Virus record (IMG/VR): IMGVR_UViG_3300037991_006036
Coordinates: 32,001 to 96,000 of that record
Length of the DNA stretch: 64,000 nt
Direction: 5' to 3' (one strand)
Origin: a virus
Lineage: Duplodnaviria; Caudoviricetes
The notes below the pieces were generated by a model, which was not told the DNA's origin, ran no database searches, and saw nothing but the letters and a program-made list of their open reading frames with translations. This document shows positions 3,675 to 64,000 of the stretch, in pieces. The first letter of the stretch is position 1. Every line of letters starts with the position of its first letter. The position numbers and the translations under genes are program-made.

Positions 3675-4041
3675 AGTAGCGAGATAGATTGTTGCCCATC
3701 TCCTCGTATAAAGATTCTAGGCGTTGTTGCAATTTACCAATTTCAGAAACAGTTTTTGTGAATTCTTTATTGTTGTTGTTAAGCTCTTTCATGTTTCTTT
3801 TTACAGTCACTTCATCAAACCACTCTTCGGTTTCTTGTAGTGCTACACGTTCTGCTTTTTCGACAATTTCAGAAATTCTATTTGCAGCTTCTTTCAAACC
3901 TTCGCTACGATAAATTACCTCTTCAAAAGATCCGTACTCTCTAATTTCTTCAAGTACTTGAGCTTTTTCACTGAGCTTCATTTTTGTAGATGCTGCACCG
4001 TTAATTGCTTCGCTAAGTTGTTTTAATATATTTTTACTCAT
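3658..4041 (-). CDS. Hypothetical coiled-coil head-module protein
   Basis: ATG at 4041 overlaps the protease stop (ORF track starts at GTG 4044); helical; N-terminal LKQLSE. Confidence 0.75.
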   Translation of the reverse strand: MSKNILKQLSEAINGAASTKMKLSEKAQVLEEIREYGSFEEVIYRSEGLKEAANRISEIVEKAERVALQETEEWFDEVTVKRNMKELNNNNKEFTKTVSEIGKLQQRLESLYEEMGNNLSRYYEVGH

Positions 4042-4658
4042 CACATTACTGATATTATCTCACTTATTAGTGAGTTGATTTTTGTATACTTGTTATTGGT
4101 GTTTGAATTAACTCCTTCGTTTAACGACGGATTCATAAAAGCTCCTTGTGTTGATGGATTACTTACTAAATCCCAACATACGATTTCAAAGTCGTTTTGT
4201 ACCTCTACCTTTCCTTCACCTAATTCTTTTACCGATCCCATTCCTCGTGAGCTAATTCCCAATCTAATTCCACACTTTAATAGCTCCTTTGCAATGTTTC
4301 CAGATGGAGTTGATAAGATTTCAATTTTTCCCATCAAATCATTCCCTTGCCACCACAAATCTAATACATTGTGTGATACGTTAGATAGGTTTACTACTTG
4401 AGAGTCTGGATGATCTAGTTCACCTAATGCTCTACGTTCTTTTACAAAAGTATTTTTGTAATTTTCTGTTTCTTTTTTTAATATTGGTAATGGATAGCTT
4501 CTGCCATTTTGATTGAAGTTTTTATCCCCACCAGAGCTGCCTCGTTGCATTATACCCGATACGATAATTTTTCCATTGTTTTTGTTCATGGACTCGTTAA
4601 TCTGTTGAGGTGTTACCTCAATCGATCCTATATAATCAACTAAGACTGATTTGCTCAT
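4041..4658 (-). CDS. gp21: Prohead maturation protease (T4 gp21-like)
   Basis: Motifs NQNGRSYP, RRALGELDHP, VSH, LGISSRGMGS, WDLVSNPSTQGAF. Confidence 0.96.
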   Translation of the reverse strand: MSKSVLVDYIGSIEVTPQQINESMNKNNGKIIVSGIMQRGSSGGDKNFNQNGRSYPLPILKKETENYKNTFVKERRALGELDHPDSQVVNLSNVSHNVLDLWWQGNDLMGKIEILSTPSGNIAKELLKCGIRLGISSRGMGSVKELGEGKVEVQNDFEIVCWDLVSNPSTQGAFMNPSLNEGVNSNTNNKYTKINSLISEIISVM

Positions 4659-10424: not shown

Positions 10425-11828
10425 CTACTCGCTTTTAGCTTTGTAGTTTTTGTCTACGTAGTTAAAGAATTCCTTTTTCTTTTTGTCGTTTTTTAAATCG
10501 GCTGGTGAGCTTATGTCAAACTTCTTCAAAGCAGATTTAAAAAACTTTTGGTATTCAGTATCTTCTTTTAATCGCTTTACGATTGATTCTGTTTTTGCGT
10601 TCATTTTATTTTCGTTTATGGTACCTCCTAAATGATCCACCATTTCTTTGGTAAATTCTTCTAATTCTTGATCGTTGAGTTTTCTATATACTTTCTCGCG
10701 TAAATGTTTAATGAGTTTGGATGCTTCATCTAAACCTCTACCTTCATTAATAGGCTGACCATCGTCGTGATATGCTCCAGGCATATCCTCTTCATCATGT
10801 TTTTGCTCTTTGTCAGCATCATAAAATTTATCATTCTCGCTTAGTCCAGATGCGAGTTTTTCTAACCTTTCACGTTCTTGTTCTAGTGCTTGCAAGGTTT
10901 CGTCTGTTAAAGGCTCACCAAATCCACCAGTTTCTGTCTCAATTTGTTTATCAATAACTGCTATTTGTTTTCGAATAGCATTCTTATCTATATCCTCATT
11001 AAGTGACTCACTAACTCTTTTTCCCAACATTCCTAATCTTTCTAAATCTCTCAAATCTTTTATATACTCATCTGTTGTTGCAAGAATTGCTCCCATCTTA
11101 TCGTTTTGATCTTCGCCACCAAAAAAGTTAAGTTCAGTCACTCTTGGATTGAAGTTTTCTCCTCCCGGCTTATCTTTAAAGTTGGAGTTGTAATATTGAG
11201 TTTGATGTACTCCAAATGTTTGTCCAGAAGTTTCTGTAAATGTGTGATATTGAACATGCACAAACATTGGAGCATATTGTCCCATTCTTTTTTTGATTGG
11301 ACTATTATCACTAGCTTGTAAATTCGCTTTAGCTTTTGACATACTCTTTACAGCGTTTGGAAAGTATTTTGTAATAAATTCCATATCCTCGCTATCAGGC
11401 TTCTCACTTGCCATATCTGATATTAGCTTTGCGCCTGAGAAGTTGTTGTCTGTGTATTCTTTTAATGAATCCTTATCCATCATGCCATGCTTCTTCATAA
11501 GATCAGCTAACTTTTTTAAAGTTTCTTTATCTTTAGTAGATAACATTTTCAACTGTCTTTCTCTTTCTAACGCTTTCAATGCAGCTCCATAAGCTGATGT
11601 AGATTCGTCAACTTTTTGAGGTAATCCTTTATGTTTAGTTGAAGCATACTTATCTACATCTTTTTTTGTCATATCCTTAGCAGCATCTCCAGCTTTTCCT
11701 TTTTTAGGAATATCACCTTTTTGCATAGCCTTTACTACTCCAAAGAATTTTTGCTGTTGCTTAGATACAGCTTTTTCTTTGACCATAGCTTTTACAGTGT
11801 TTTCTATTAATGCATCTAATTTTTTCAT
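10425..11828 (-). CDS. Multi-module candidate internal head polyprotein with DUF3008-like module
   Basis: AVSKQQQKFFG...DVDKYASTKHKGLPQKV resembles DUF3008; modules are separated by VKE, VDE, LKE, LNE, LSE, INE, INE, LKE. Confidence 0.65.
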   Translation of the reverse strand: MKKLDALIENTVKAMVKEKAVSKQQQKFFGVVKAMQKGDIPKKGKAGDAAKDMTKKDVDKYASTKHKGLPQKVDESTSAYGAALKALERERQLKMLSTKDKETLKKLADLMKKHGMMDKDSLKEYTDNNFSGAKLISDMASEKPDSEDMEFITKYFPNAVKSMSKAKANLQASDNSPIKKRMGQYAPMFVHVQYHTFTETSGQTFGVHQTQYYNSNFKDKPGGENFNPRVTELNFFGGEDQNDKMGAILATTDEYIKDLRDLERLGMLGKRVSESLNEDIDKNAIRKQIAVIDKQIETETGGFGEPLTDETLQALEQERERLEKLASGLSENDKFYDADKEQKHDEEDMPGAYHDDGQPINEGRGLDEASKLIKHLREKVYRKLNDQELEEFTKEMVDHLGGTINENKMNAKTESIVKRLKEDTEYQKFFKSALKKFDISSPADLKNDKKKKEFFNYVDKNYKAKSE

Positions 11829-12229
11829 CGTAGACTATCTTCTTTTACTCTTTGTAGAATTGTTAATTTGTCTTGGTTTCCGTAACCAAAACTTTCTAAC
11901 ATATCAACTACTATTGCAACTATATCAGTCTGATCTACTTCAGCAGTAGCATCTTTGAGTTTTTTAATATACAGATCAGTAAGTTCTTGTAATTCTTCAT
12001 CAAGACCTGGCTCATCCTCTTCTCCTGCTTCTGGATCTTCGGTAGGCTCCTCAGTTGGTTCCTCGGCTGGTTCTTCTGCAGGCTCCTCTGTAGGTTCTTC
12101 AGTAGGCTCTTCTTCTGGAGTTTCTTCTTCCGGTGCACCTCCTGCTCCTTCATTAACTACATTGTAAAGCTCACGTCTTATAAGTTCACGAATCAATGCT
12201 TTTTGTAATTGTTTTTTTGTGTACTTCAT
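11825..12229 (-). CDS. Acidic hypothetical protein with EEP[T/A] repeats; candidate internal head protein
   Basis: 134 aa; leader ...LIRELIRRELYNVVNE followed by a Glu/Pro linker. Confidence 0.7.
   Translation of the reverse strand: MKYTKKQLQKALIRELIRRELYNVVNEGAGGAPEEETPEEEPTEEPTEEPAEEPAEEPTEEPTEDPEAGEEDEPGLDEELQELTDLYIKKLKDATAEVDQTDIVAIVVDMLESFGYGNQDKLTILQRVKEDSLR
12029..12112 (-). repeat. 12-bp-period coding tandem repeat (about 7 EEPT/EEPA units)
   Basis: Encodes EEPTEEPTEEPAEEPAEEPTEEPTEDPE with synonymous variation between units. Confidence 0.85.
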
Positions 12230-12633
12230 TTTATTGCATTTTTAAACTTCACATCTTCTCCAGAGAAATTCTTCTTGTCTTCTGAGTCAAACATTATACC
12301 TTCAAGAGTAGCGTATCCGTCTTTCTCTTTTTTTACAATTTTGCAAATTGTTGCATCTAATTTTTCTAATCCGTTTAACACATAAACTAATCCAAACATG
12401 CAATATTTTTTAGAGCATTTAGCGACAATATATGCTTTAGATACTACAAGACCCATATCACCAAAATTAGTAAGATCTGCTGTGTATATCTTTACGTCAT
12501 CCTTTACTCCAACGTAATCAAATAATACATCATATCCGTCGTTAAGTTCTGCAAACTTGCGAACGTAATCTACCCACTCTGTTCCGTCGTTTTCATTTAT
12601 TGGTTGTAGTGGTAATAAGTCTTTTAATTTCAT
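12226..12633 (-). CDS. Hypothetical protein; candidate internal head protein
   Basis: 135 aa; leader MKLKDLLPLQPINE. Confidence 0.7.
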   Translation of the reverse strand: MKLKDLLPLQPINENDGTEWVDYVRKFAELNDGYDVLFDYVGVKDDVKIYTADLTNFGDMGLVVSKAYIVAKCSKKYCMFGLVYVLNGLEKLDATICKIVKKEKDGYATLEGIMFDSEDKKNFSGEDVKFKNAIK

Positions 12634-59478: not shown

Positions 59479-59507
59479 AATATACAAAATTCAAATCAAA
59501 CTATCAA
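59479..59507 (-). promoter_or_regulatory. Sigma70-like promoter candidate for hpt
   Basis: TTGATA-N17-TATATT, ending 6 nt before ATG 59472. Confidence 0.5.
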
Positions 59508-59674
59508 CTTTTAACTTGGATGATTATTTTATCATTGACTCTTTTAACAATAAAATTGGAAGGTACAATGTTTGTGAGATATTCTTCGTAGTATGCATTA
59601 CGATCAAACTTAGGCTTTTTAGGAACCTCAGCCTTAACATATCCGGGTGGCATTATGTCTTTTAGTTTGATCAT
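59504..59674 (-). CDS. Small protein (56 aa) below the ORF-track cutoff
   Basis: MIKLKDIMPPGYVKAEVPKKPKFDRNAYYEEYLTNIVPSNFIVKRVNDKIIIQVKS*. ATGA overlap with the upstream stop; fills the gap. Confidence 0.75.
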   Translation of the reverse strand: MIKLKDIMPPGYVKAEVPKKPKFDRNAYYEEYLTNIVPSNFIVKRVNDKIIIQVKS

Positions 59675-60795
59675 GTTAAATTATAGTATGTCATTATATC
59701 ATTATTAATAGCTGATATGTTAGCTTCCTCTGACGATTTAAAAACAATAGCTTCCATAAACTCAGGACCTGAAGCTTTGTTGCTTTGATCATACACAAAT
59801 TGTCTAGTTTGTGTTTTTGTAAAATCGGTACGTGAAGCTTGCAACACATTGTTTACATAATATGCAGTAGTTCCTGGATCGTTTTGTAATAATGTTGTGA
59901 AGGTGTATGGTGTATTAGTAGCAAATGTGTTTGTGCTTGTTAATATATTAGTAGGTCCCGTTCTATTAATTAATACAAATTGATCAGTAGTTTCATCATA
60001 CTCAATAATAGCGTTATTTGCAAATTGTTTTGGTGACATTGAAACTCCTTCTACAGTAAAACTACCTCCAGGATCTTTTACATTAGTTGTTGTAAATATA
60101 GTTAATGGTTGAGATGCATCAAGATAATCAGAAGCATCTAGTGTAGCTGTTTTGTCTTGTCTCCACGTATTTACTGCTGCTACAAATTCTTTTCCACCTA
60201 TTGTTATAGTTTCTAATACTCCATTAGTTACTAACTCATCCATTTGCCCACCAACATTAGCATTTAAGTGTGTCAATGTTTGATCTACTGTTTGGTTATA
60301 AAATTTTTCAATTTCTACAATATCTGCAGAAGGCATTGAATCAGGATTACTATATCCTGGTGCTGCACAAAATTCACCCAACGTTGTAGCTAAAACACCC
60401 GATGTAACTGCTGTTATTGGACTATCTAGTGATGTATAGTTGTTGCTATCAAAGTGTAAATCTGCCTGATCATCGGCAGTTCCTGTCGATCCAGCAGTAC
60501 CTCGTCTTCTTATTCTCATTGAGAATCCAGTATAATCTGTTCTGAGTTTTCTAAATGAAGTGGCTAAAAAGGCTGTTGATCTGTTATCTAATAGAAGACC
60601 TCCCGTATCAACACTGCCGTAGGTTCTAGCAAACTGTTGTCTCAGATGCTCTTGATAACGCAAAAACGCTTCTTTTTTTCTTCTTTGATTGCGAGCATTA
60701 TTAGCTTTAGAGGCTTCTTGTTCACGAAGCTCATCCTTAAGCGCTTGCTCTCTAGCCCAATCACTATTTCGTAAGTATTTGTTAAAATCTCCCAT
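59671..60795 (-). CDS. Common-leader protein A with ConA-like (AbfB-like) domain
   Basis: Leader NQRRKKEAFLRYQEHLRQQFA; SFRKLRTDYTGFSMRIRR; ends INNDIMTYYNL. Confidence 0.7.
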   Translation of the reverse strand: MGDFNKYLRNSDWAREQALKDELREQEASKANNARNQRRKKEAFLRYQEHLRQQFARTYGSVDTGGLLLDNRSTAFLATSFRKLRTDYTGFSMRIRRRGTAGSTGTADDQADLHFDSNNYTSLDSPITAVTSGVLATTLGEFCAAPGYSNPDSMPSADIVEIEKFYNQTVDQTLTHLNANVGGQMDELVTNGVLETITIGGKEFVAAVNTWRQDKTATLDASDYLDASQPLTIFTTTNVKDPGGSFTVEGVSMSPKQFANNAIIEYDETTDQFVLINRTGPTNILTSTNTFATNTPYTFTTLLQNDPGTTAYYVNNVLQASRTDFTKTQTRQFVYDQSNKASGPEFMEAIVFKSSEEANISAINNDIMTYYNLT

Positions 60796-60796
60796 A

Positions 60797-61630
60797 TTAT
60801 AATTCTGGAATATCTCCTTGTATATCTCCAGCTGTCATATTTTTTAACTCACCATTAAACCCACCGCTTCCATGATCAATTAAATCTGGGAACGTGTCAC
60901 CATCTCCCATTCGATACCATGAGTTTGGAGATAATGACGATAATCCTCCAGGCACTCCTCCATTATACATAGTTGCAAAGTTGGCTGATTGATCTGAAGT
61001 CCAAAAGGCAGCTTCATCAATTTTTCCTAAAAATCTACCATAAGCACTAATACTCAATCTTAACCCATTGTAAGAAGTATACAGAATTGTCGCACCTATA
61101 GATACATCACTACCTTGTACACCATTAACCATTCTCTTTAACGTACTTCCATCGTATGCAATGGCAACATGTGTCCACTCATCTTGTCCATTACCTGCAC
61201 CAAGACCTTGTGTTGTTCCATTTATTCTTGCAACAAATTGATTATAGTTCCAATAAATTTCTATTCCTTGATTACCTACACTGTGTGAGCCATTTAAGAA
61301 AATATTTCTTCTATTAGAAGCTTCTGGCTTAGCCCACACGCTCATTGTTAGAGTTTGCACTTTTCTTGATGCATCAGAACCTAAAATAGCAAAATCATTA
61401 CTTCCATCGAACGCTGTACTGAATTGGTTTACAAAAGACTCTTCACCATAAGCGCTACCATAAGTTTTTGCGAATTGCTGATTTAAGTGTTGTTGATATC
61501 GTAAGAATGCTTCCTTCTTTCTTCGCTGATTTTGTCTTTTCTTAGCGTTAAAAGCCTCCTCCTCTTGCAACTTTTGTTTTGCTGCTAGCTCCCTAATATA
61601 ATCTGCATTTCTAAGAAAGTCTCTTGACAT
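60797..61630 (-). CDS. Common-leader protein B with LamG domain
   Basis: Leader; FDGSNDF, TMSVWAKP, WTHVAIAYDG, FLGKIDEAAFW, WYRMGDG. Confidence 0.75.
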   Translation of the reverse strand: MSRDFLRNADYIRELAAKQKLQEEEAFNAKKRQNQRRKKEAFLRYQQHLNQQFAKTYGSAYGEESFVNQFSTAFDGSNDFAILGSDASRKVQTLTMSVWAKPEASNRRNIFLNGSHSVGNQGIEIYWNYNQFVARINGTTQGLGAGNGQDEWTHVAIAYDGSTLKRMVNGVQGSDVSIGATILYTSYNGLRLSISAYGRFLGKIDEAAFWTSDQSANFATMYNGGVPGGLSSLSPNSWYRMGDGDTFPDLIDHGSGGFNGELKNMTAGDIQGDIPEL

Positions 61631-61636
61631 AATTAA

Positions 61637-61885
61637 TTATTCTATTGTCCAATCATTTCCAGCTAATCGTGTTAAACATTCCGCATGAGTACCTCTCCAA
61701 GTTAAAGACACACTACCATCAGTAATAAATGTAGGTTCGTTTGCTGTAAACCATTTTAATGTAAATTGTGATTCGTCGACTGATAATCTGACTGTATCAG
61801 CTGATGTTTCCATCACTTGTGAAAAGTCTACCTTATCTATGTCTGTTGCGTTTGCGAATGCGTATGTTCTATCTGAATAATCCAT
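61637..61885 (-). CDS. Small partner protein of the LamG gene
   Basis: 82 aa, KVDFSQVMETSADTVRLSVD...LKW; tightly spaced between neighbours. Confidence 0.7.
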   Translation of the reverse strand: MDYSDRTYAFANATDIDKVDFSQVMETSADTVRLSVDESQFTLKWFTANEPTFITDGSVSLTWRGTHAECLTRLAGNDWTIE

Positions 61886-61887
61886 TA

Positions 61888-62895
61888 CTAATAAGTTTTG
61901 TAATAATTGTTAATATTAGTCTCTATAGCTGCTCTGTCAGTAGTCTTGTCTGCTAAATACATTATTAATTCAACTGGGTTTGCTGCATTATTAGATAATG
62001 CTTTATCGGGATAAAAAGTACTCCCCATTCGTGGAATAGTAGTCTCACTTCCTGATGCTATTTTATTTCCTTCAAAATATAAAGCTGTTTCTCCTGGTGC
62101 TTCATTAACAATAGCTGTTATTGTGTTTAGTGCATCTTGAGTGTGAGTTGCTGATCCTGATATATGACCTATGGTGCCATAAGGAGCATTCGACCCTGTT
62201 TCAAGAGTTATGACATCACTTACTGTTTCTATTATTTCTTTACCTGCAGTGTGTTCAGCTAAATTTAGATAAAATTGTGATGCTGCATGAGCGTAGTTGG
62301 TTACAAACACTGTATGAGATGTTCCTGGATCTATGTCTTGGAGTCTTGCAGTAGCAGCATATTGTTTGTAAGTTTCGTTTAGATATAAGATACTGCCCGA
62401 AACATACACATTACCACTTGTATCTGATACGAATAGAGAATTAGATCCAGCATTAATAGAATTTCTCACAGTTCCTTGCGATTGATCATACCAAGTATGC
62501 AATCTTCCCTGATTTCCATCTAAAAATGTACTTAAACTTTGTGTATCTAAATAATTGTCAATAAACCCAATATCCAATTCAGCATCATCAGAAGCACGTC
62601 TTACCCTAATAGCTGAGCCAGTGTAATCAGTACGTAGCTTTCTTAAAGACCATGCTAAATAAACGTCATCTCCATAATCATCTAACAGAAGTGATGTTGA
62701 TCCGCCAGGATTAGATCCTGCAGCCATTGCTCTTGCTGCTAACTCCTGTCGAAGATGTTCTTGATATCGTAAAAACGCTTCTTTTTTTCTTCGCTGATTT
62801 TGTTTCTTTTTAGCCTCAAACGCTTCTTCCTCTTGCAGTTTTTGTTTTGCTGCCCAATCTCGAATATGATCTGCATTTCTGAGAAAGTCTTTCAT
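61888..62895 (-). CDS. Common-leader protein C with ConA-like (AbfB-like) domain
   Basis: Leader; AWSLRKLRTDYTGSAIRVRRASDDAELDIGF, TWYDQS, IETNINNYY. Confidence 0.75.
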   Translation of the reverse strand: MKDFLRNADHIRDWAAKQKLQEEEAFEAKKKQNQRRKKEAFLRYQEHLRQELAARAMAAGSNPGGSTSLLLDDYGDDVYLAWSLRKLRTDYTGSAIRVRRASDDAELDIGFIDNYLDTQSLSTFLDGNQGRLHTWYDQSQGTVRNSINAGSNSLFVSDTSGNVYVSGSILYLNETYKQYAATARLQDIDPGTSHTVFVTNYAHAASQFYLNLAEHTAGKEIIETVSDVITLETGSNAPYGTIGHISGSATHTQDALNTITAIVNEAPGETALYFEGNKIASGSETTIPRMGSTFYPDKALSNNAANPVELIMYLADKTTDRAAIETNINNYYKTY

Positions 62896-63764
62896 TTGTC
62901 TGATGTGGTTTCTACTACAACTTGTATTTTTGGTTCATAGCCTTGAGGCAGTTTATTTACCAATCCTTTGAAAGTAGAGTTACCAGCATCGTGTCTGAAT
63001 TCAAACTTCAGATTATTAAGATCCATCATTACTTGTGATGATGTTGTAAAGCCATAACTGTTATCTCTTCTATATGGATTCATAAATTTATCACTATCAT
63101 GTTGCTTTGATAGTGCATCTAATATGTGTTCTTGTGACGATATATCCGACAATACATCGTATGCAATTTGTTGGCGTGACTTGGATGATTGTCTTTTTAT
63201 CCCTCCAGTATATCCAGTATCTGGATAAGCTACACCATGATTTGTTCTTGTGATTGTTTGATCTGGTTGAACACGTTTAATAGTTGGTAAATGCTTTGTT
63301 GTCATTTCAATAATAAAACTATGCTGTGCATTAGATACAATAGTCATTCCTTTAACTCCAACATCATCTTCATCCTCTCCTTTAAAGTTGATTATTGAGC
63401 GAATTGCTTTTGACAGCTTACCCTGCTCAAGAGCCTTTCTAATCTTTAACCCATCATATGATGGTTTTCCATTTTTACCCTTCTTAGCTTTATCCTTAGC
63501 AAGGTCACCTTCCTTTTCATCAAAACCAACCATCAAAGAAGCATTAACTATTCCAATCCCATTCTCATTCATCCCTTCACTCCAATCAGTTAACACATCT
63601 CTCATATATACAACCTCAACACCATCTACTAACTCATGCACTACTTCCAAATCAGGAGCATACATACGATCACGATTCTTTGCAAGAATAGTATTACCAT
63701 CAACACGACAACGTGCAATAACACACTCACTTAAATCGTGAAGAAGATGGCGAAGTTTAATCAT
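62892..63764 (-). CDS. Cys-nucleophile Ntn hydrolase (NRDE/TANGO2- or C45-like) with a 13-aa leader
   Basis: LSE|CVIA...TILAKNRDR, WSEGMNENGIGIVN, RTNHG, SKSR, TTSSQ. Confidence 0.75.
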   Translation of the reverse strand: MIKLRHLLHDLSECVIARCRVDGNTILAKNRDRMYAPDLEVVHELVDGVEVVYMRDVLTDWSEGMNENGIGIVNASLMVGFDEKEGDLAKDKAKKGKNGKPSYDGLKIRKALEQGKLSKAIRSIINFKGEDEDDVGVKGMTIVSNAQHSFIIEMTTKHLPTIKRVQPDQTITRTNHGVAYPDTGYTGGIKRQSSKSRQQIAYDVLSDISSQEHILDALSKQHDSDKFMNPYRRDNSYGFTTSSQVMMDLNNLKFEFRHDAGNSTFKGLVNKLPQGYEPKIQVVVETTSDK

Positions 63765-63776
63765 GATCAGCTTTCT

Positions 63777-63784
63777 AATAAATA
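63777..63784 (-). promoter_or_regulatory. Late promoter-like motif TATTTATT (Ntn hydrolase operon)
   Basis: 12 nt before ATG 63764. Confidence 0.65.
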
Positions 63785-63789
63785 GTCAA

Positions 63790-64000
63790 CTATTTTTTAG
63801 TTTCTTTGTGCTGATCGATTTTTTCTAGAATTTTAGATAGTACGTCTAATTGAATCCAACCACTCAGTGAAGCGTTTTTAAGTGCGCTGATAAGTTGGAA
63901 TATTAGGAAAGGAACAACAACGGTTTCACTTAACCAACCCGTTCCTACAAAGCCCTTTTCTACAGCTAAGATTACACCTAAGATAACCCACCACAATACT
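63790..64000 (-). CDS. Holin-like membrane protein (5' end outside the window)
   Basis: Two hydrophobic segments, then QLISALKNASLSGW and a charged tail, similar to phage holin 4_1 (SxxEN..G). The frame stays open to the window edge. Confidence 0.6.
   Translation of the reverse strand, partial: VLWWVILGVILAVEKGFVGTGWLSETVVVPFLIFQLISALKNASLSGWIQLDVLSKILEKIDQHKETKK

What the first reader, a model, noticed from the sequence alone, without database searches (positions are those of the whole stretch)
62892..63764. Ntn hydrolase zymogen whose catalytic Cys is masked by a prohead-protease-type leader
Seen: MIKLRHLLHDLSE|CVIA...LAKNRDR...WSEGMNENG...RTNHG. Cys14 (TGT, 63723-63725) directly follows L-S-E, no Met is adjacent to it, and a late motif lies 12 nt upstream. 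Established: Ntn hydrolases need the nucleophile as the free N-terminal residue (NRDE/TANGO2 proteins start Met-Cys; C45/C59 use Cys), and gp21-type proteases cut after (I/L)-x-E. Inference: one cut both removes the capsid-targeting tag and activates the enzyme, so it is inert in the producing cell and armed only in the mature head. The substrate is unknown; amide-linked lipids, signalling amides or protein conjugates are possibilities.
Basis: partly seen in the sequence, partly recalled or inferred. Interest (0 to 1): 0.85.

Follow-up and report, generated by a model that had tools for sequence, protein, structure and literature searches.

The report
Phage Ntn hydrolase behind capsid-cargo leader
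A T4-like phage of a Bacteroidota host encodes an amide-cleaving enzyme whose catalytic first residue sits right behind a short tag, shared with a dozen other phage proteins, that ends in the head-maturation protease's cutting motif, so removing the tag during head assembly probably also switches the enzyme on.

Summary
ORF 62892-63764(-) encodes 290 aa that begin MIKLRHLLHDLSE|C. No alternative start lies before residue 34, and a strand-specific late-type motif ends 12 nt upstream of the ATG.

The protein is a C45/AAT-like Cys-Ntn hydrolase. In the AF2 model, Cys14 superposes on the nucleophile of NAAA, acid ceramidase, IAT, BSH and PVA (Z 15-19).

The leader is not private to this enzyme. 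About ten unrelated ORFs of the same 122-kb phage carry the same M(x)KLxx[IL][LV]...[LIV]xE leader (0.04 expected by chance), and seven more carry a second leader class. The phage encodes a Peptidase_S77 (T4 gp21-type) protease.

In other phage lineages the hydrolase carries that lineage's own leader, shared with 5-9 neighbouring genes, and always ends [LIV]-x-E|C. Of 294 distinct junctions, 204 are E|C, and 195 of those have a hydrophobic P3.

The family is essentially confined to viruses. A sister clade has [KR]-x-[ASG]|C, often inside giant polyvalent proteins. Met-Cys forms arose several times.

Cutting by the protease rather than self-processing, and packaging into the head, remain inferred. 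The closest family, C45, normally self-processes.

First readers of this scan noted the same idea on another genome.

Verdict: a plausible and easily tested new variant of T4-type capsid cargo. Confidence about 0.55.

The parts
62892..63764 (-). Whole ORF: 290-aa pro-form of a C45/AAT-like Cys-Ntn hydrolase. Its TGA stop overlaps the ATG of the next gene.
63726..63764 (-). 13-residue leader MIKLRHLLHDLSE. It belongs to the class-B cargo leader family and ends in L-S-E, a gp21-type site.
   Evidence: The model has pLDDT below 50 for residues 1-10.
63723..63725 (-). Cys14 codon (TGT), the predicted N-terminal nucleophile after leader removal.
   Evidence: Invariant in the alignment. Model residue 14 aligns with Cys126 of NAAA, Cys143 of acid ceramidase, Cys103 of IAT, Cys2 of BSH and Cys1 of PVA.
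62895..63725 (-). Mature hydrolase domain (residues 14-290) with an alpha-beta-beta-alpha Ntn fold.
   Evidence: AF2 model with pLDDT 84.5 and pTM 0.86. Foldseek finds IAT at E 4.6e-9. VIA-align gives Z 15-19.
63666..63677 (-). Invariant N30-R31-D32-R33 motif, a candidate counterpart of the Arg/Asp pair of Cys-Ntn active sites.
   Evidence: Invariant columns; coordinates checked. The catalytic role is inferred.
63234..63242 (-). Invariant N175-H176-G177, a candidate oxyanion-hole or active-site Asn.
   Evidence: The role is inferred.
63777..63785 (-). Late-promoter-like motif CTATTTATT, 12 nt upstream of the ATG.
4041..4658 (-). Prohead maturation protease of the Peptidase_S77 family (T4 gp21 type), the proposed activating protease.
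   Evidence: Pfam 94.6 bits; PHROG 207; 55% identical to the protease of Flavobacterium phage immuto.
12226..12633 (-). Unrelated 135-aa ORF with the leader MKLKDLLPLQPINE|N. This is the same module that precedes Cys in hydrolase homologues such as MKLKDLIPKPINE|C.
   Evidence: homologue leaders
10425..11828 (-). Unrelated 467-aa ORF with the leader MKKLDALIE|N.
59504..59674 (-). 56-aa ORF beginning MIKLKDIMPPGYVKAE. In close relatives it lies directly downstream of the hydrolase gene.

Best explanation
The gene encodes a virus-restricted, C45/AAT-like cysteine Ntn amidohydrolase made as a pro-enzyme.

Residues 1-13 are a copy of the phage's generic class-B cargo leader, M-x-K-L-x-x-[IL]-[LV]...[LIV]-x-E. 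By analogy with the 10-residue capsid targeting sequence of the T4 internal proteins, this leader takes the protein into the prohead core.

The phage's Peptidase_S77 (gp21-type) protease then cuts after L11-S12-E13. Because the next residue is Cys14, the same cut creates the free alpha-amino cysteine that every Ntn hydrolase needs as nucleophile and base. Activation is therefore coupled to head maturation, and the active enzyme is carried in the head and released into the next host with the DNA.

Shown here: the fold and the nucleophile position, the shared leader, the protease family, the junction motif, and the late-type promoter motif.

Inferred: packaging, cutting by the protease rather than self-cleavage, inactivity of the precursor, and delivery. 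The substrate is unknown. It is presumably an amide bond, since the nearest folds are lipid-amide, bile-salt and penicillin amidases.
For: (1) Ntn identity. Pfam AAT is hit by 16 of 35 homologues, best E 1e-7. NCBIfam C45_proenzyme matches at E 4e-10. The AF2 model has pLDDT 84.5, its first strand starts at residue 15 and the leader is disordered. Foldseek and VIA-align start their alignments at model residue 14 opposite the nucleophile Cys of NAAA, acid ceramidase, IAT, BSH and PVA, with Z 15-19.

(2) The leader is a portable module. Ten of 142 gene N-termini in this genome match it, against 0.04 expected (list). Seven more ORFs carry a second Glu-terminated leader class. Two non-hydrolase ORFs carry MKL[KR]DL[IL]P..INE|[NS], the same module, terminal INE included, that precedes Cys in homologues.

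(3) The leader co-varies with lineage. In L046, L049, L050/60/68/83 and L080 the hydrolase carries that lineage's own leader, shared with 4-9 neighbouring unrelated ORFs.

(4) Junction logo. All 80 IMG/VR loci have [LIVF]-x-E|C. Of 204 distinct E|C junctions, P3 is L/I/V/M/F in 195, while P2, P4 and P5 are variable. This equals the T4 gp21 motif L/I-X-E (PMC9026906).

(5) Two-part leaders keep a second [LIV]xE exactly at the Cys behind spacers of variable length.

(6) A Peptidase_S77 protease is present here, in 11 of 15 large short-leader E|C contigs including 3 of 3 that are at least 90% complete, and in Chryseobacterium phage MA9V-1.

(7) A late-type promoter motif is shared with structural genes and conserved in relatives.

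(8) The T4 CTS MKTYQEFIAE (PMC8442874) has key positions 4, 7, 8 and 10. These match L4, I/L7, L8 and E10 of MIKLKDILKE.

(9) A targeting leader is only useful if it stays attached until assembly, which argues against fast self-cleavage (inference).
Against: The nearest characterised family, C45/IAT, and the other pro-peptide-bearing Cys-Ntn hydrolases (PVA, NAAA, acid ceramidase) self-process. The NCBIfam model is even named 'autoproteolytic'.

Many relatives have leaders of only 4-7 residues, such as MKLSE|C, probably too short for a T4-type targeting signal.

Met-Cys forms arose at least three times. One sits in a contig whose other genes use MIKLKDIL-type leaders. So neither masking nor targeting is obligatory.

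The split between E|C and [KR]x[ASG]|C is a single deep branch, so its link to protease type amounts to one event. The protease of the A|C clade could not be identified.

S77 was not found in 4 of 15 short-leader contigs or in 0 of 5 long-form E|C contigs, although all of these are incomplete.

There are no virion proteomics for any carrier.
Confidence: 0.55

Rival explanations
1. Self-processing pro-enzyme. As in IAT, PVA, NAAA and acid ceramidase, Cys14 attacks its own preceding peptide bond. The leader, or a stub left after an upstream protease cut, is removed autocatalytically. Under this reading the conserved [LIV]-x-E reflects the needs of the precursor's own active site, and the leader may still serve in targeting.
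For: The closest sequence family is 'C45 family autoproteolytic acyltransferase/hydrolase' and the best structural matches include self-processing enzymes. Very short MKLSE|C leaders are easier to explain as self-removed. The sister clade's small P1 residue (A/S/G) resembles the Gly-Cys junctions of IAT and PVA (from general knowledge).
Against: The terminal [IL]-N-E belongs to a leader module that also occurs on non-hydrolase proteins, where Ser or Asn follows it. P3 and P1 reproduce the gp21 logo. Met-Cys and A|C relatives show that the fold does not require L-x-E. In long forms the junction lies at the end of a 17-residue disordered linker after a separate small beta domain, not in an integrated C45 alpha-subunit. 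Fast self-cleavage would waste a targeting leader (inference).
Confidence: 0.28
2. The leader has nothing to do with the capsid. It is a common N-terminal module of late phage proteins, for example for expression or for another localisation. The hydrolase then works in the infected cell, perhaps with the adjacent lysis genes.
For: The gene lies two genes downstream of an endolysin (PG_binding_1 + Amidase_2). A leaderless relative sits among signal-peptide proteins. No virion data exist.
Against: The leader is not hydrophobic enough to be a signal peptide. It always ends in the protease motif. It mirrors the T4 CTS in length and in its key positions. It co-varies by lineage across many unrelated cargo-like genes. 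Without removal of the leader the Ntn nucleophile could not work.
Confidence: 0.1
3. The domain's main role is as a self-cleaving or processing peptidase module. In the polyvalent relatives it would release neighbouring domains. The solo form would be a relic or a processing enzyme for other cargo.
For: The domain occurs inside proteins of 500-2800 aa next to topoisomerase IB, GNAT, RNA ligase, 2H phosphoesterase, poly(A) polymerase-type and SOD domains. The polyvalent-protein literature proposes processing peptidase domains in such proteins (PMC5512222).
Against: The window protein and hundreds of relatives are solo enzymes with a fully conserved pocket. Nothing lies upstream to be released except a 13-residue leader.
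Confidence: 0.05

Closest known systems
T4 internal proteins IPI/IPII/IPIII and Alt, with their capsid targeting sequence cut off by gp21
   Same: A short N-terminal leader of about 10-20 residues is shared by unrelated proteins of one phage and ends in hydrophobic-x-Glu. A Peptidase_S77 protease is encoded in the genome. The cargo genes are polymorphic and clustered. Key leader positions 4, 7, 8 and 10 correspond.
   Different: The leader sequence is different (MIKLKDILKE type and a second KxRLxELAG[IL]xE type). The host is a Bacteroidota. The cleavage site abuts a catalytic nucleophile, so the cut would also activate an enzyme. No such coupling was found in the T4 literature read here or in the two literature searches.
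Acyl-CoA:isopenicillin N acyltransferase and the C45 family (Pfam PF03417, NCBIfam NF040521)
   Same: Same Cys-Ntn fold, with the nucleophile at the equivalent position (Cys103 of IAT against Cys14). Remote sequence homology at E 4e-10.
   Different: The scores are below both curated cut-offs (19.1 against 23.2 bits; 39.5 against 85). There is no roughly 100-residue alpha-subunit. The junction is L-x-E|C rather than Gly-Cys. The family is confined to viruses. Self-processing is not established.
NAAA and acid ceramidase (C89), and bile salt hydrolase and penicillin V acylase (C59)
   Same: These are the best structural matches, Z 15-19 over about 200-220 residues, starting at the nucleophile Cys. 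All are amidases that need a free N-terminal Cys.
   Different: Only 10-16% identity and no sequence-level hit. Substrate specificity cannot be transferred.
Propeptide-bearing ejection proteins of giant phages (phiKZ, 201phi2-1, SPN3US)
   Same: Many head proteins carry propeptides that are cut after x-x-Glu by a diverged gp21 homologue. Multiple sites occur within one propeptide (PMC5694885). Hydrolase-bearing contigs of 250-290 kb show the same pattern, with leaders such as MKNLIRSILNE...[LIV]xE|C.
   Different: In those phages P3 is S/A/G rather than L/I/V. No Ntn hydrolase cargo has been described for them.

Membership tests
Cys-Ntn hydrolase superfamily (C45/C59/C89 clan) | Alpha-beta-beta-alpha sandwich fold | tested here: met
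   AF2 model with pLDDT 84.5. Foldseek finds IAT, CV2077, BSH, NAAA and PVA with E down to 4.6e-9. VIA-align gives Z 15-19 with 196-230 aligned residues.
Cys-Ntn hydrolase superfamily (C45/C59/C89 clan) | Nucleophile Cys at the start of the first core strand, equivalent to the known nucleophiles | tested here: met
   Alignments begin at model residue 14 opposite Cys126 (NAAA), Cys143 (acid ceramidase), Cys103 (IAT), Cys2 (BSH) and Cys1 (PVA). Cys14 is invariant. Sixteen representative relatives start Met-Cys.
Cys-Ntn hydrolase superfamily (C45/C59/C89 clan) | Free alpha-amino group on the nucleophile in the mature enzyme | not testable with these tools
   Needs N-terminal sequencing or intact-mass measurement of the expressed or virion protein.
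Pfam AAT (PF03417) / NCBIfam C45_proenzyme (NF040521) | Score above the curated cut-off | tested here: not met
   Window protein: 19.1 bits against 23.2 and 39.5 bits against 85. Sixteen of 35 homologues match AAT at E up to 0.01, best 1e-7. The protein is a distant relative, not a member by the curated thresholds.
Pfam AAT (PF03417) / NCBIfam C45_proenzyme (NF040521) | Autoproteolytic activation at the residue before the Cys | not testable with these tools
   Requires expressing the full-length protein without the phage protease.
T4-type capsid-targeted, gp21-processed head cargo | Peptidase_S77 prohead protease encoded by the same phage | tested here: met
   Window 4041-4658, 94.6 bits. Also found in 11 of 15 large short-leader relatives' contigs and in MA9V-1.
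T4-type capsid-targeted, gp21-processed head cargo | Short N-terminal leader ending in (L/I)-x-E | tested here: met
   L11-S12-E13 here. P3 is hydrophobic in 195 of 204 distinct E|C junctions. The motif definition is from PMC9026906.
T4-type capsid-targeted, gp21-processed head cargo | The same leader on otherwise unrelated proteins of the phage | tested here: met
   Ten of 142 N-termini against 0.04 expected. The same holds in other lineages with their own leaders.
T4-type capsid-targeted, gp21-processed head cargo | Presence in the virion with the leader removed | not testable with these tools
   No proteome exists for this phage or for MA9V-1 in the material searched.
   No Pfam family other than AAT was reported at E up to 1. 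The protein shares an N-R-D motif and a Cys nucleophile. The structural neighbour 3gvz (Z 18.8) is an uncharacterised protein whose family I did not verify.

The most novel reading that the evidence does not exclude
This would be the first Ntn hydrolase activated in trans. A viral head-maturation protease would remove a capsid-targeting leader whose last residue abuts the nucleophile, so that addressing, latency and activation are all encoded in one 13-residue tag. More broadly, a virus-restricted hydrolase clade (204 distinct E|C junctions) would have its junction motif tuned to the maturation protease of its phage. The sister clade's [KR]-x-[ASG]|C junction, often inside giant polyvalent proteins, would be matched to a different processing activity.
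Probability: 0.5. Interest if true: 0.8.

Novelty: new variant of a known kind. Interest (0 to 1): 0.7.

Why it matters
If true, it gives a simple and general design rule. A phage can carry a potentially harmful enzyme safely by placing the protease site of its capsid-targeting tag directly before an N-terminal nucleophile.

It would add a trans-activated class to the Ntn hydrolases, which are otherwise activated by self-cleavage or by Met removal.

It would also identify a large family of injected amidases, found only in viruses, whose target in the host is unknown. Candidates include amide-linked lipids of Bacteroidota, signalling amides and protein conjugates.

The leader families found here also extend the T4 internal-protein and CTS principle to uncultured marine and freshwater T4-like and jumbo phages. 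They provide a sequence handle for listing the injected cargo of these phages.

Tried and rejected
- PHROGs gave no family.
- PDB sequence searches with the single protein and with the profile gave nothing relevant.
- The cultured-phage collection holds only two carriers, Chryseobacterium phages MA9V-1 and MA9V-2, at about 38% identity.
- The classical T4 late promoter TATAAATA is not enriched on the coding strand (8 hits against 25 on the other strand). The real motif is CTATTTAT[AT].
- The polyvalent-protein paper does not mention an Ntn domain.
- Literature searches for a phage or virion Ntn hydrolase, or for trans-activated Ntn enzymes, found nothing relevant.
- I tested whether the A|C clade sits in phages with another protease type. 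S77 and S78 gave 0 of 5 each, but those contigs are at most 27% complete, so the result is inconclusive.
- S77 in long-form E|C contigs was 0 of 5 at 33-43% completeness, also inconclusive. A protein-level search for the protease in the four S77-negative contigs found nothing.
- I tested the idea that the roughly 95-residue N-extension of long forms is the C45 alpha-subunit, which would favour classical self-processing. It was rejected: the model shows a separate small beta domain and a disordered linker. That domain has no homologue in this genome, and the long forms' neighbours share no leader with them.
- I looked for cellular homologues that might show an E|C junction outside phages. There were none among about 185,000 species genomes with profile A1 and two MAG contigs with A2.
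- The tree of mature domains shows the E/A split as one deep event (6 label changes over 135 sequences), so it cannot serve as independent co-variation evidence.
Full report
**1. Observation**

The window holds an ORF at 62892..63764 on the minus strand. It encodes 290 residues that begin MIKLRHLLHDLSE followed by Cys14 (TGT at 63723-63725). Between codon 2 and codon 33 there is no in-frame ATG, GTG or TTG, so the protein cannot start Met-Cys.

The 'late motif' is real. CTATTTATT lies at 63777-63785(-), exactly 12 nt before the ATG. CTATTTAT occurs 19 times on the coding strand of the 122,293-bp genome and never on the other strand. Fifteen copies lie within 60 nt upstream of a start codon, including those of the terminase and several tail genes and the head of a leader-gene operon. 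In six relatives that are 76-84% identical, the motif is invariant at the same distance from the ATG while its flanks vary. The leader codons show synonymous changes.

**2. The genome**

The genome is a T4-like phage. It has a Peptidase_S77 (gp21-type) protease at 4041-4658 (94.6 bits), a T4-type portal and a large terminase. The capsid protein's N-terminal region contains several [LIV]-x-E sites. The protease is closest to that of Flavobacterium phage immuto, at 55% identity. A 926-aa phage protein carries a type IX secretion sorting domain. The host is therefore very probably a member of the Bacteroidota.

**3. The protein**

Sequence searches give only sub-threshold matches to the C45 family. 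Pfam AAT scores 19.1 bits against a cut-off of 23.2, and NCBIfam C45_proenzyme matches at E 4e-10 but 39.5 bits against 85. Sixteen of 35 homologues hit AAT, best E 1e-7.

An AlphaFold2 model built on 35 homologues has pLDDT 84.5 and pTM 0.86. The first strand starts at residue 15 and residues 1-10 are disordered. Foldseek finds isopenicillin N acyltransferase, CV2077, bile salt hydrolases, NAAA and penicillin V acylase with E down to 4.6e-9.

VIA-align gives Z 15-19. Its alignments start at model residue 14, opposite the first residue of the mature chains: Cys126 of human NAAA, Cys143 of acid ceramidase, Cys103 of IAT, Cys2 of BSH and Cys1 of PVA. Cys14 is invariant, as are N30-R31-D32-R33, E63-G64, N66, N175-H176-G177 and N229-P230, R232. 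The protein is therefore a cysteine Ntn hydrolase with Cys14 as its nucleophile. That these invariant residues play the Arg/Asp/Asn/Arg roles known from BSH is my inference.

**4. The leader is a shared module**

In this genome, 10 of 142 called genes begin with M-(x)-K-L-x-x-[ILV]-[ILVM] followed shortly by [ILV]-x-E. The same pattern at internal positions predicts 0.04 such N-termini. The carriers are unrelated to each other. They include:
- a HAD-like protein;
- two HExxH-containing proteins;
- a 467-aa and a 135-aa protein inside the window (10425-11828 and 12226-12633);
- a tight operon at genome 117344-121797, headed by the same late motif.

A looser N-terminal scan also picked up a 56-aa ORF in the window, 59504-59674, that begins MIKLKDIM. 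A second leader class, roughly K-x-R-L-x-E-L-A-G-[IL]-x-E, starts seven more small genes at genome 103040-106318. A first-reader note led me to look for that second class.

The typical leader, MIKLKDILKE, has the length of the T4 capsid targeting sequence MKTYQEFIAE (PMC8442874). It is hydrophobic at positions 4, 7 and 8 and has Glu at position 10. In T4 IPIII, positions 4 and 7 matter for targeting and positions 8 and 10 for processing (PMC9026906). T4 gp21 cuts after L/I-X-E.

In the window's hydrolase, position 10 is Asp, which in T4 blocks processing but not targeting. The functional site would then be L11-S12-E13.

**5.

The large protein collection holds 286 relatives. Apart from five 5'-truncated entries with no junction region, the 120 best have x-E|C-V, with one Asp-Cys exception, behind leaders of 8 to about 115 residues. 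IMG/VR holds 475 relatives. Seventy-nine of the 80 best loci (42-84% identity) have [L/I/V/F]-x-E|C; no junction could be extracted from the eightieth, L055.

Over 294 distinct junction contexts pooled from all searches:
- 204 are E|C. Among these, P3 is L/I/V/M/F in 195. P2 is variable (Asn in 43%), and P4 and P5 are variable.
- 69 are [K/R]-x-[A/S/G]|C. P3 is K or R in 68 of them.
- 16 are Met-Cys starts.

The leader of the hydrolase changes with the phage lineage and matches that lineage's leader on neighbouring, unrelated genes:
- MIKLIDLLKE|C, with nine neighbours of the form MIKLxxxLxE (L046);
- MNLKDSIKNILRE..., with nine MNLQESIRRILRE-type neighbours, on a 257-kb contig (L049);
- MKNLIRSILNE..., with 5-7 M[KR]xLIRxILKE neighbours (L050, L060, L068, L083);
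- a fourth type in L080.

In these two-part leaders a spacer of 0-13 variable residues follows the generic leader. A second [LIV]-x-E is always kept exactly at the Cys.

Two non-hydrolase ORFs of the present genome carry MKL[KR]DL[IL]P..INE followed by Asn or Ser. This is the very module that precedes Cys in homologues such as MKLKDLIPKPINE|C. The [IL]-N-E before the Cys therefore belongs to the portable leader and is not a requirement of the hydrolase fold.

**6. Co-occurrence with the protease**

Peptidase_S77 was found in 8 of 10 large E|C contigs, including 3 of 3 that are at least 90% complete. It was found in 3 of 5 contigs with very short leaders and in Chryseobacterium phage MA9V-1, whose homologue begins MTSANNNEFLNE|C. 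It was not found in five long-form contigs, all 33-43% complete.

The family is essentially confined to viruses. There were no hits with profile A1 and two MAG contigs with A2 among about 185,000 prokaryotic species genomes. The nearest ESM Atlas clusters are 96-100% viral.

**7. What remains open**

All characterised Cys-Ntn hydrolases with propeptides that I know of cleave themselves, and the nearest family model is named 'autoproteolytic'. Self-processing at E13|C14 is therefore the main rival.

- Leaders as short as MKLSE|C are unlikely to be targeting signals.
- Met-Cys forms arose at least three times. One has a stop four codons upstream and sits in a contig whose other genes carry MIKLKDIL-type leaders. 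The unmasked, untargeted enzyme is therefore tolerated.
- The split between E and A junctions is a single deep branch, and the protease of the A clade could not be identified.

Three points count against self-processing:
- The junction motif is that of the leader module and of gp21.
- Neither Glu nor a hydrophobic P3 is needed by the fold, as the A|C and M|C clades show.
- In long forms the junction ends a 17-residue disordered linker after a separate small beta domain rather than an integrated C45 alpha-subunit.

A targeting tag that cleaved itself off in the cytoplasm would also be useless (inference).

**8. Context of the family**

In the sister clade the domain is embedded in proteins of up to 2,792 residues. 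Its companions there are topoisomerase IB, GNAT, RNA ligase, 2H phosphoesterase, poly(A)-polymerase-type, HAD and SOD domains. This is the polyvalent-protein type that has been proposed to be packaged and delivered at invasion (PMC5512222). It fits a role for the hydrolase as delivered cargo but does not reveal its substrate.

In close relatives the hydrolase gene is directly followed by two further leader-bearing genes. In the window, three lectin-like genes are inserted between them.

**9. Verdict**

The interpretation passed every test that could be run in silico, but its central biochemical step is inferred. My estimates are:
- about 0.95 that this is a Cys14 Ntn hydrolase;
- about 0.8 that the leader is a propeptide cut by the S77 protease;
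- about 0.55 for the full chain of targeting, a trans cut at E13|C14 and activation in the head.

It is a new variant of a known kind, T4-type capsid cargo. No published description of the activation logic turned up in the searches run here. First-reader notes of this scan record the same idea for this stretch and for a homologue in another genome. Those notes are unchecked and were not used as evidence.

Noticed in passing
outside the window: genome 117344-121797 (L002:13344-17797, minus strand): An operon of six consecutive genes all start with the class-B leader (MKLKDILKE, MKLKGIVKDIVLE, MIKLNNILLE, MIKLKDILKE, MSKLKDILYE, MIKLAEILNE). It is headed by the CTATTTATA motif. The cargo includes a HAD-like phosphatase (DUF2608/HAD) and two proteins with HExxH motifs.
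   Followed up: partly
outside the window: genome 103040-106318 (L003/L002): Seven small genes form an array and share a second Glu-terminated leader, roughly K-x-R-L-x-E-L-A-G-[IL]-x-E. Their bodies are mostly unrelated and acidic.
   Followed up: partly
relatives: P0142-P0269 and L085, L088-L105: The sister clade of the hydrolase has a sharply defined [K/R]-x-[A/S/G]|Cys junction (P3 is K or R in 68 of 69, Met at P5 in 46%). It often lies inside polyvalent proteins of 500-2800 aa with topoisomerase IB, GNAT, RNA ligase, 2H, poly(A) polymerase-type, HAD and SOD domains. These occur on GC-rich contigs estimated to be 10-27% of very large phage genomes. What cuts this junction is unknown.
   Followed up: partly
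outside the window: genome 98851-101631 (L003:2851-5631, minus strand): A 926-aa phage protein ends in a Por_Secre_tail (type IX secretion C-terminal sorting) domain. This points to a Bacteroidota host and to a phage protein exported by the host's T9SS.
   Followed up: no
window 63790-64000 and beyond: genome 95790-97787: A lysis cassette lies just upstream of the hydrolase gene. It comprises a small membrane protein, an endolysin (PG_binding_1 + Amidase_2, 319 aa), a lipoprotein-like 109-aa ORF and a 95-aa ORF with a transmembrane segment.
   Followed up: partly
window 59671-62895: Three genes downstream of the hydrolase share a charged N-terminal segment of about 55 residues (DFLRNAD.IR..AAKQKLQEEEAF...). 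They continue into lectin-like domains; the 277-aa protein matches Laminin_G_3. In close relatives these genes are absent between the hydrolase and the 56-aa MIKLKDIM gene.
   Followed up: partly
genome-wide, e.g. upstream of genome 106964, 111395, 114006 and 121810: A second repeated upstream element, roughly TTACTACGTAAAGGAAAGATAATTA..AAATAATCAC, precedes several non-structural genes. It may be an early or middle promoter.
   Followed up: no
relatives P0030-P0107 (long forms), model ma02b520acfc9: About 40 clusters of hydrolase homologues carry an extra N-terminal region of about 95 residues. It consists of a helix, a small five-stranded beta domain with a conserved Cys and His, and a disordered linker ending in [LI]-x-E|C. 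The function of this domain is unknown.
   Followed up: partly
L086:14280-16127: A freshwater phage contig whose hydrolase starts Met-Cys still has MIKLKDILSE-type leaders on neighbouring genes. One of those is a Hint/PT-HINT (intein-like) domain protein.
   Followed up: no
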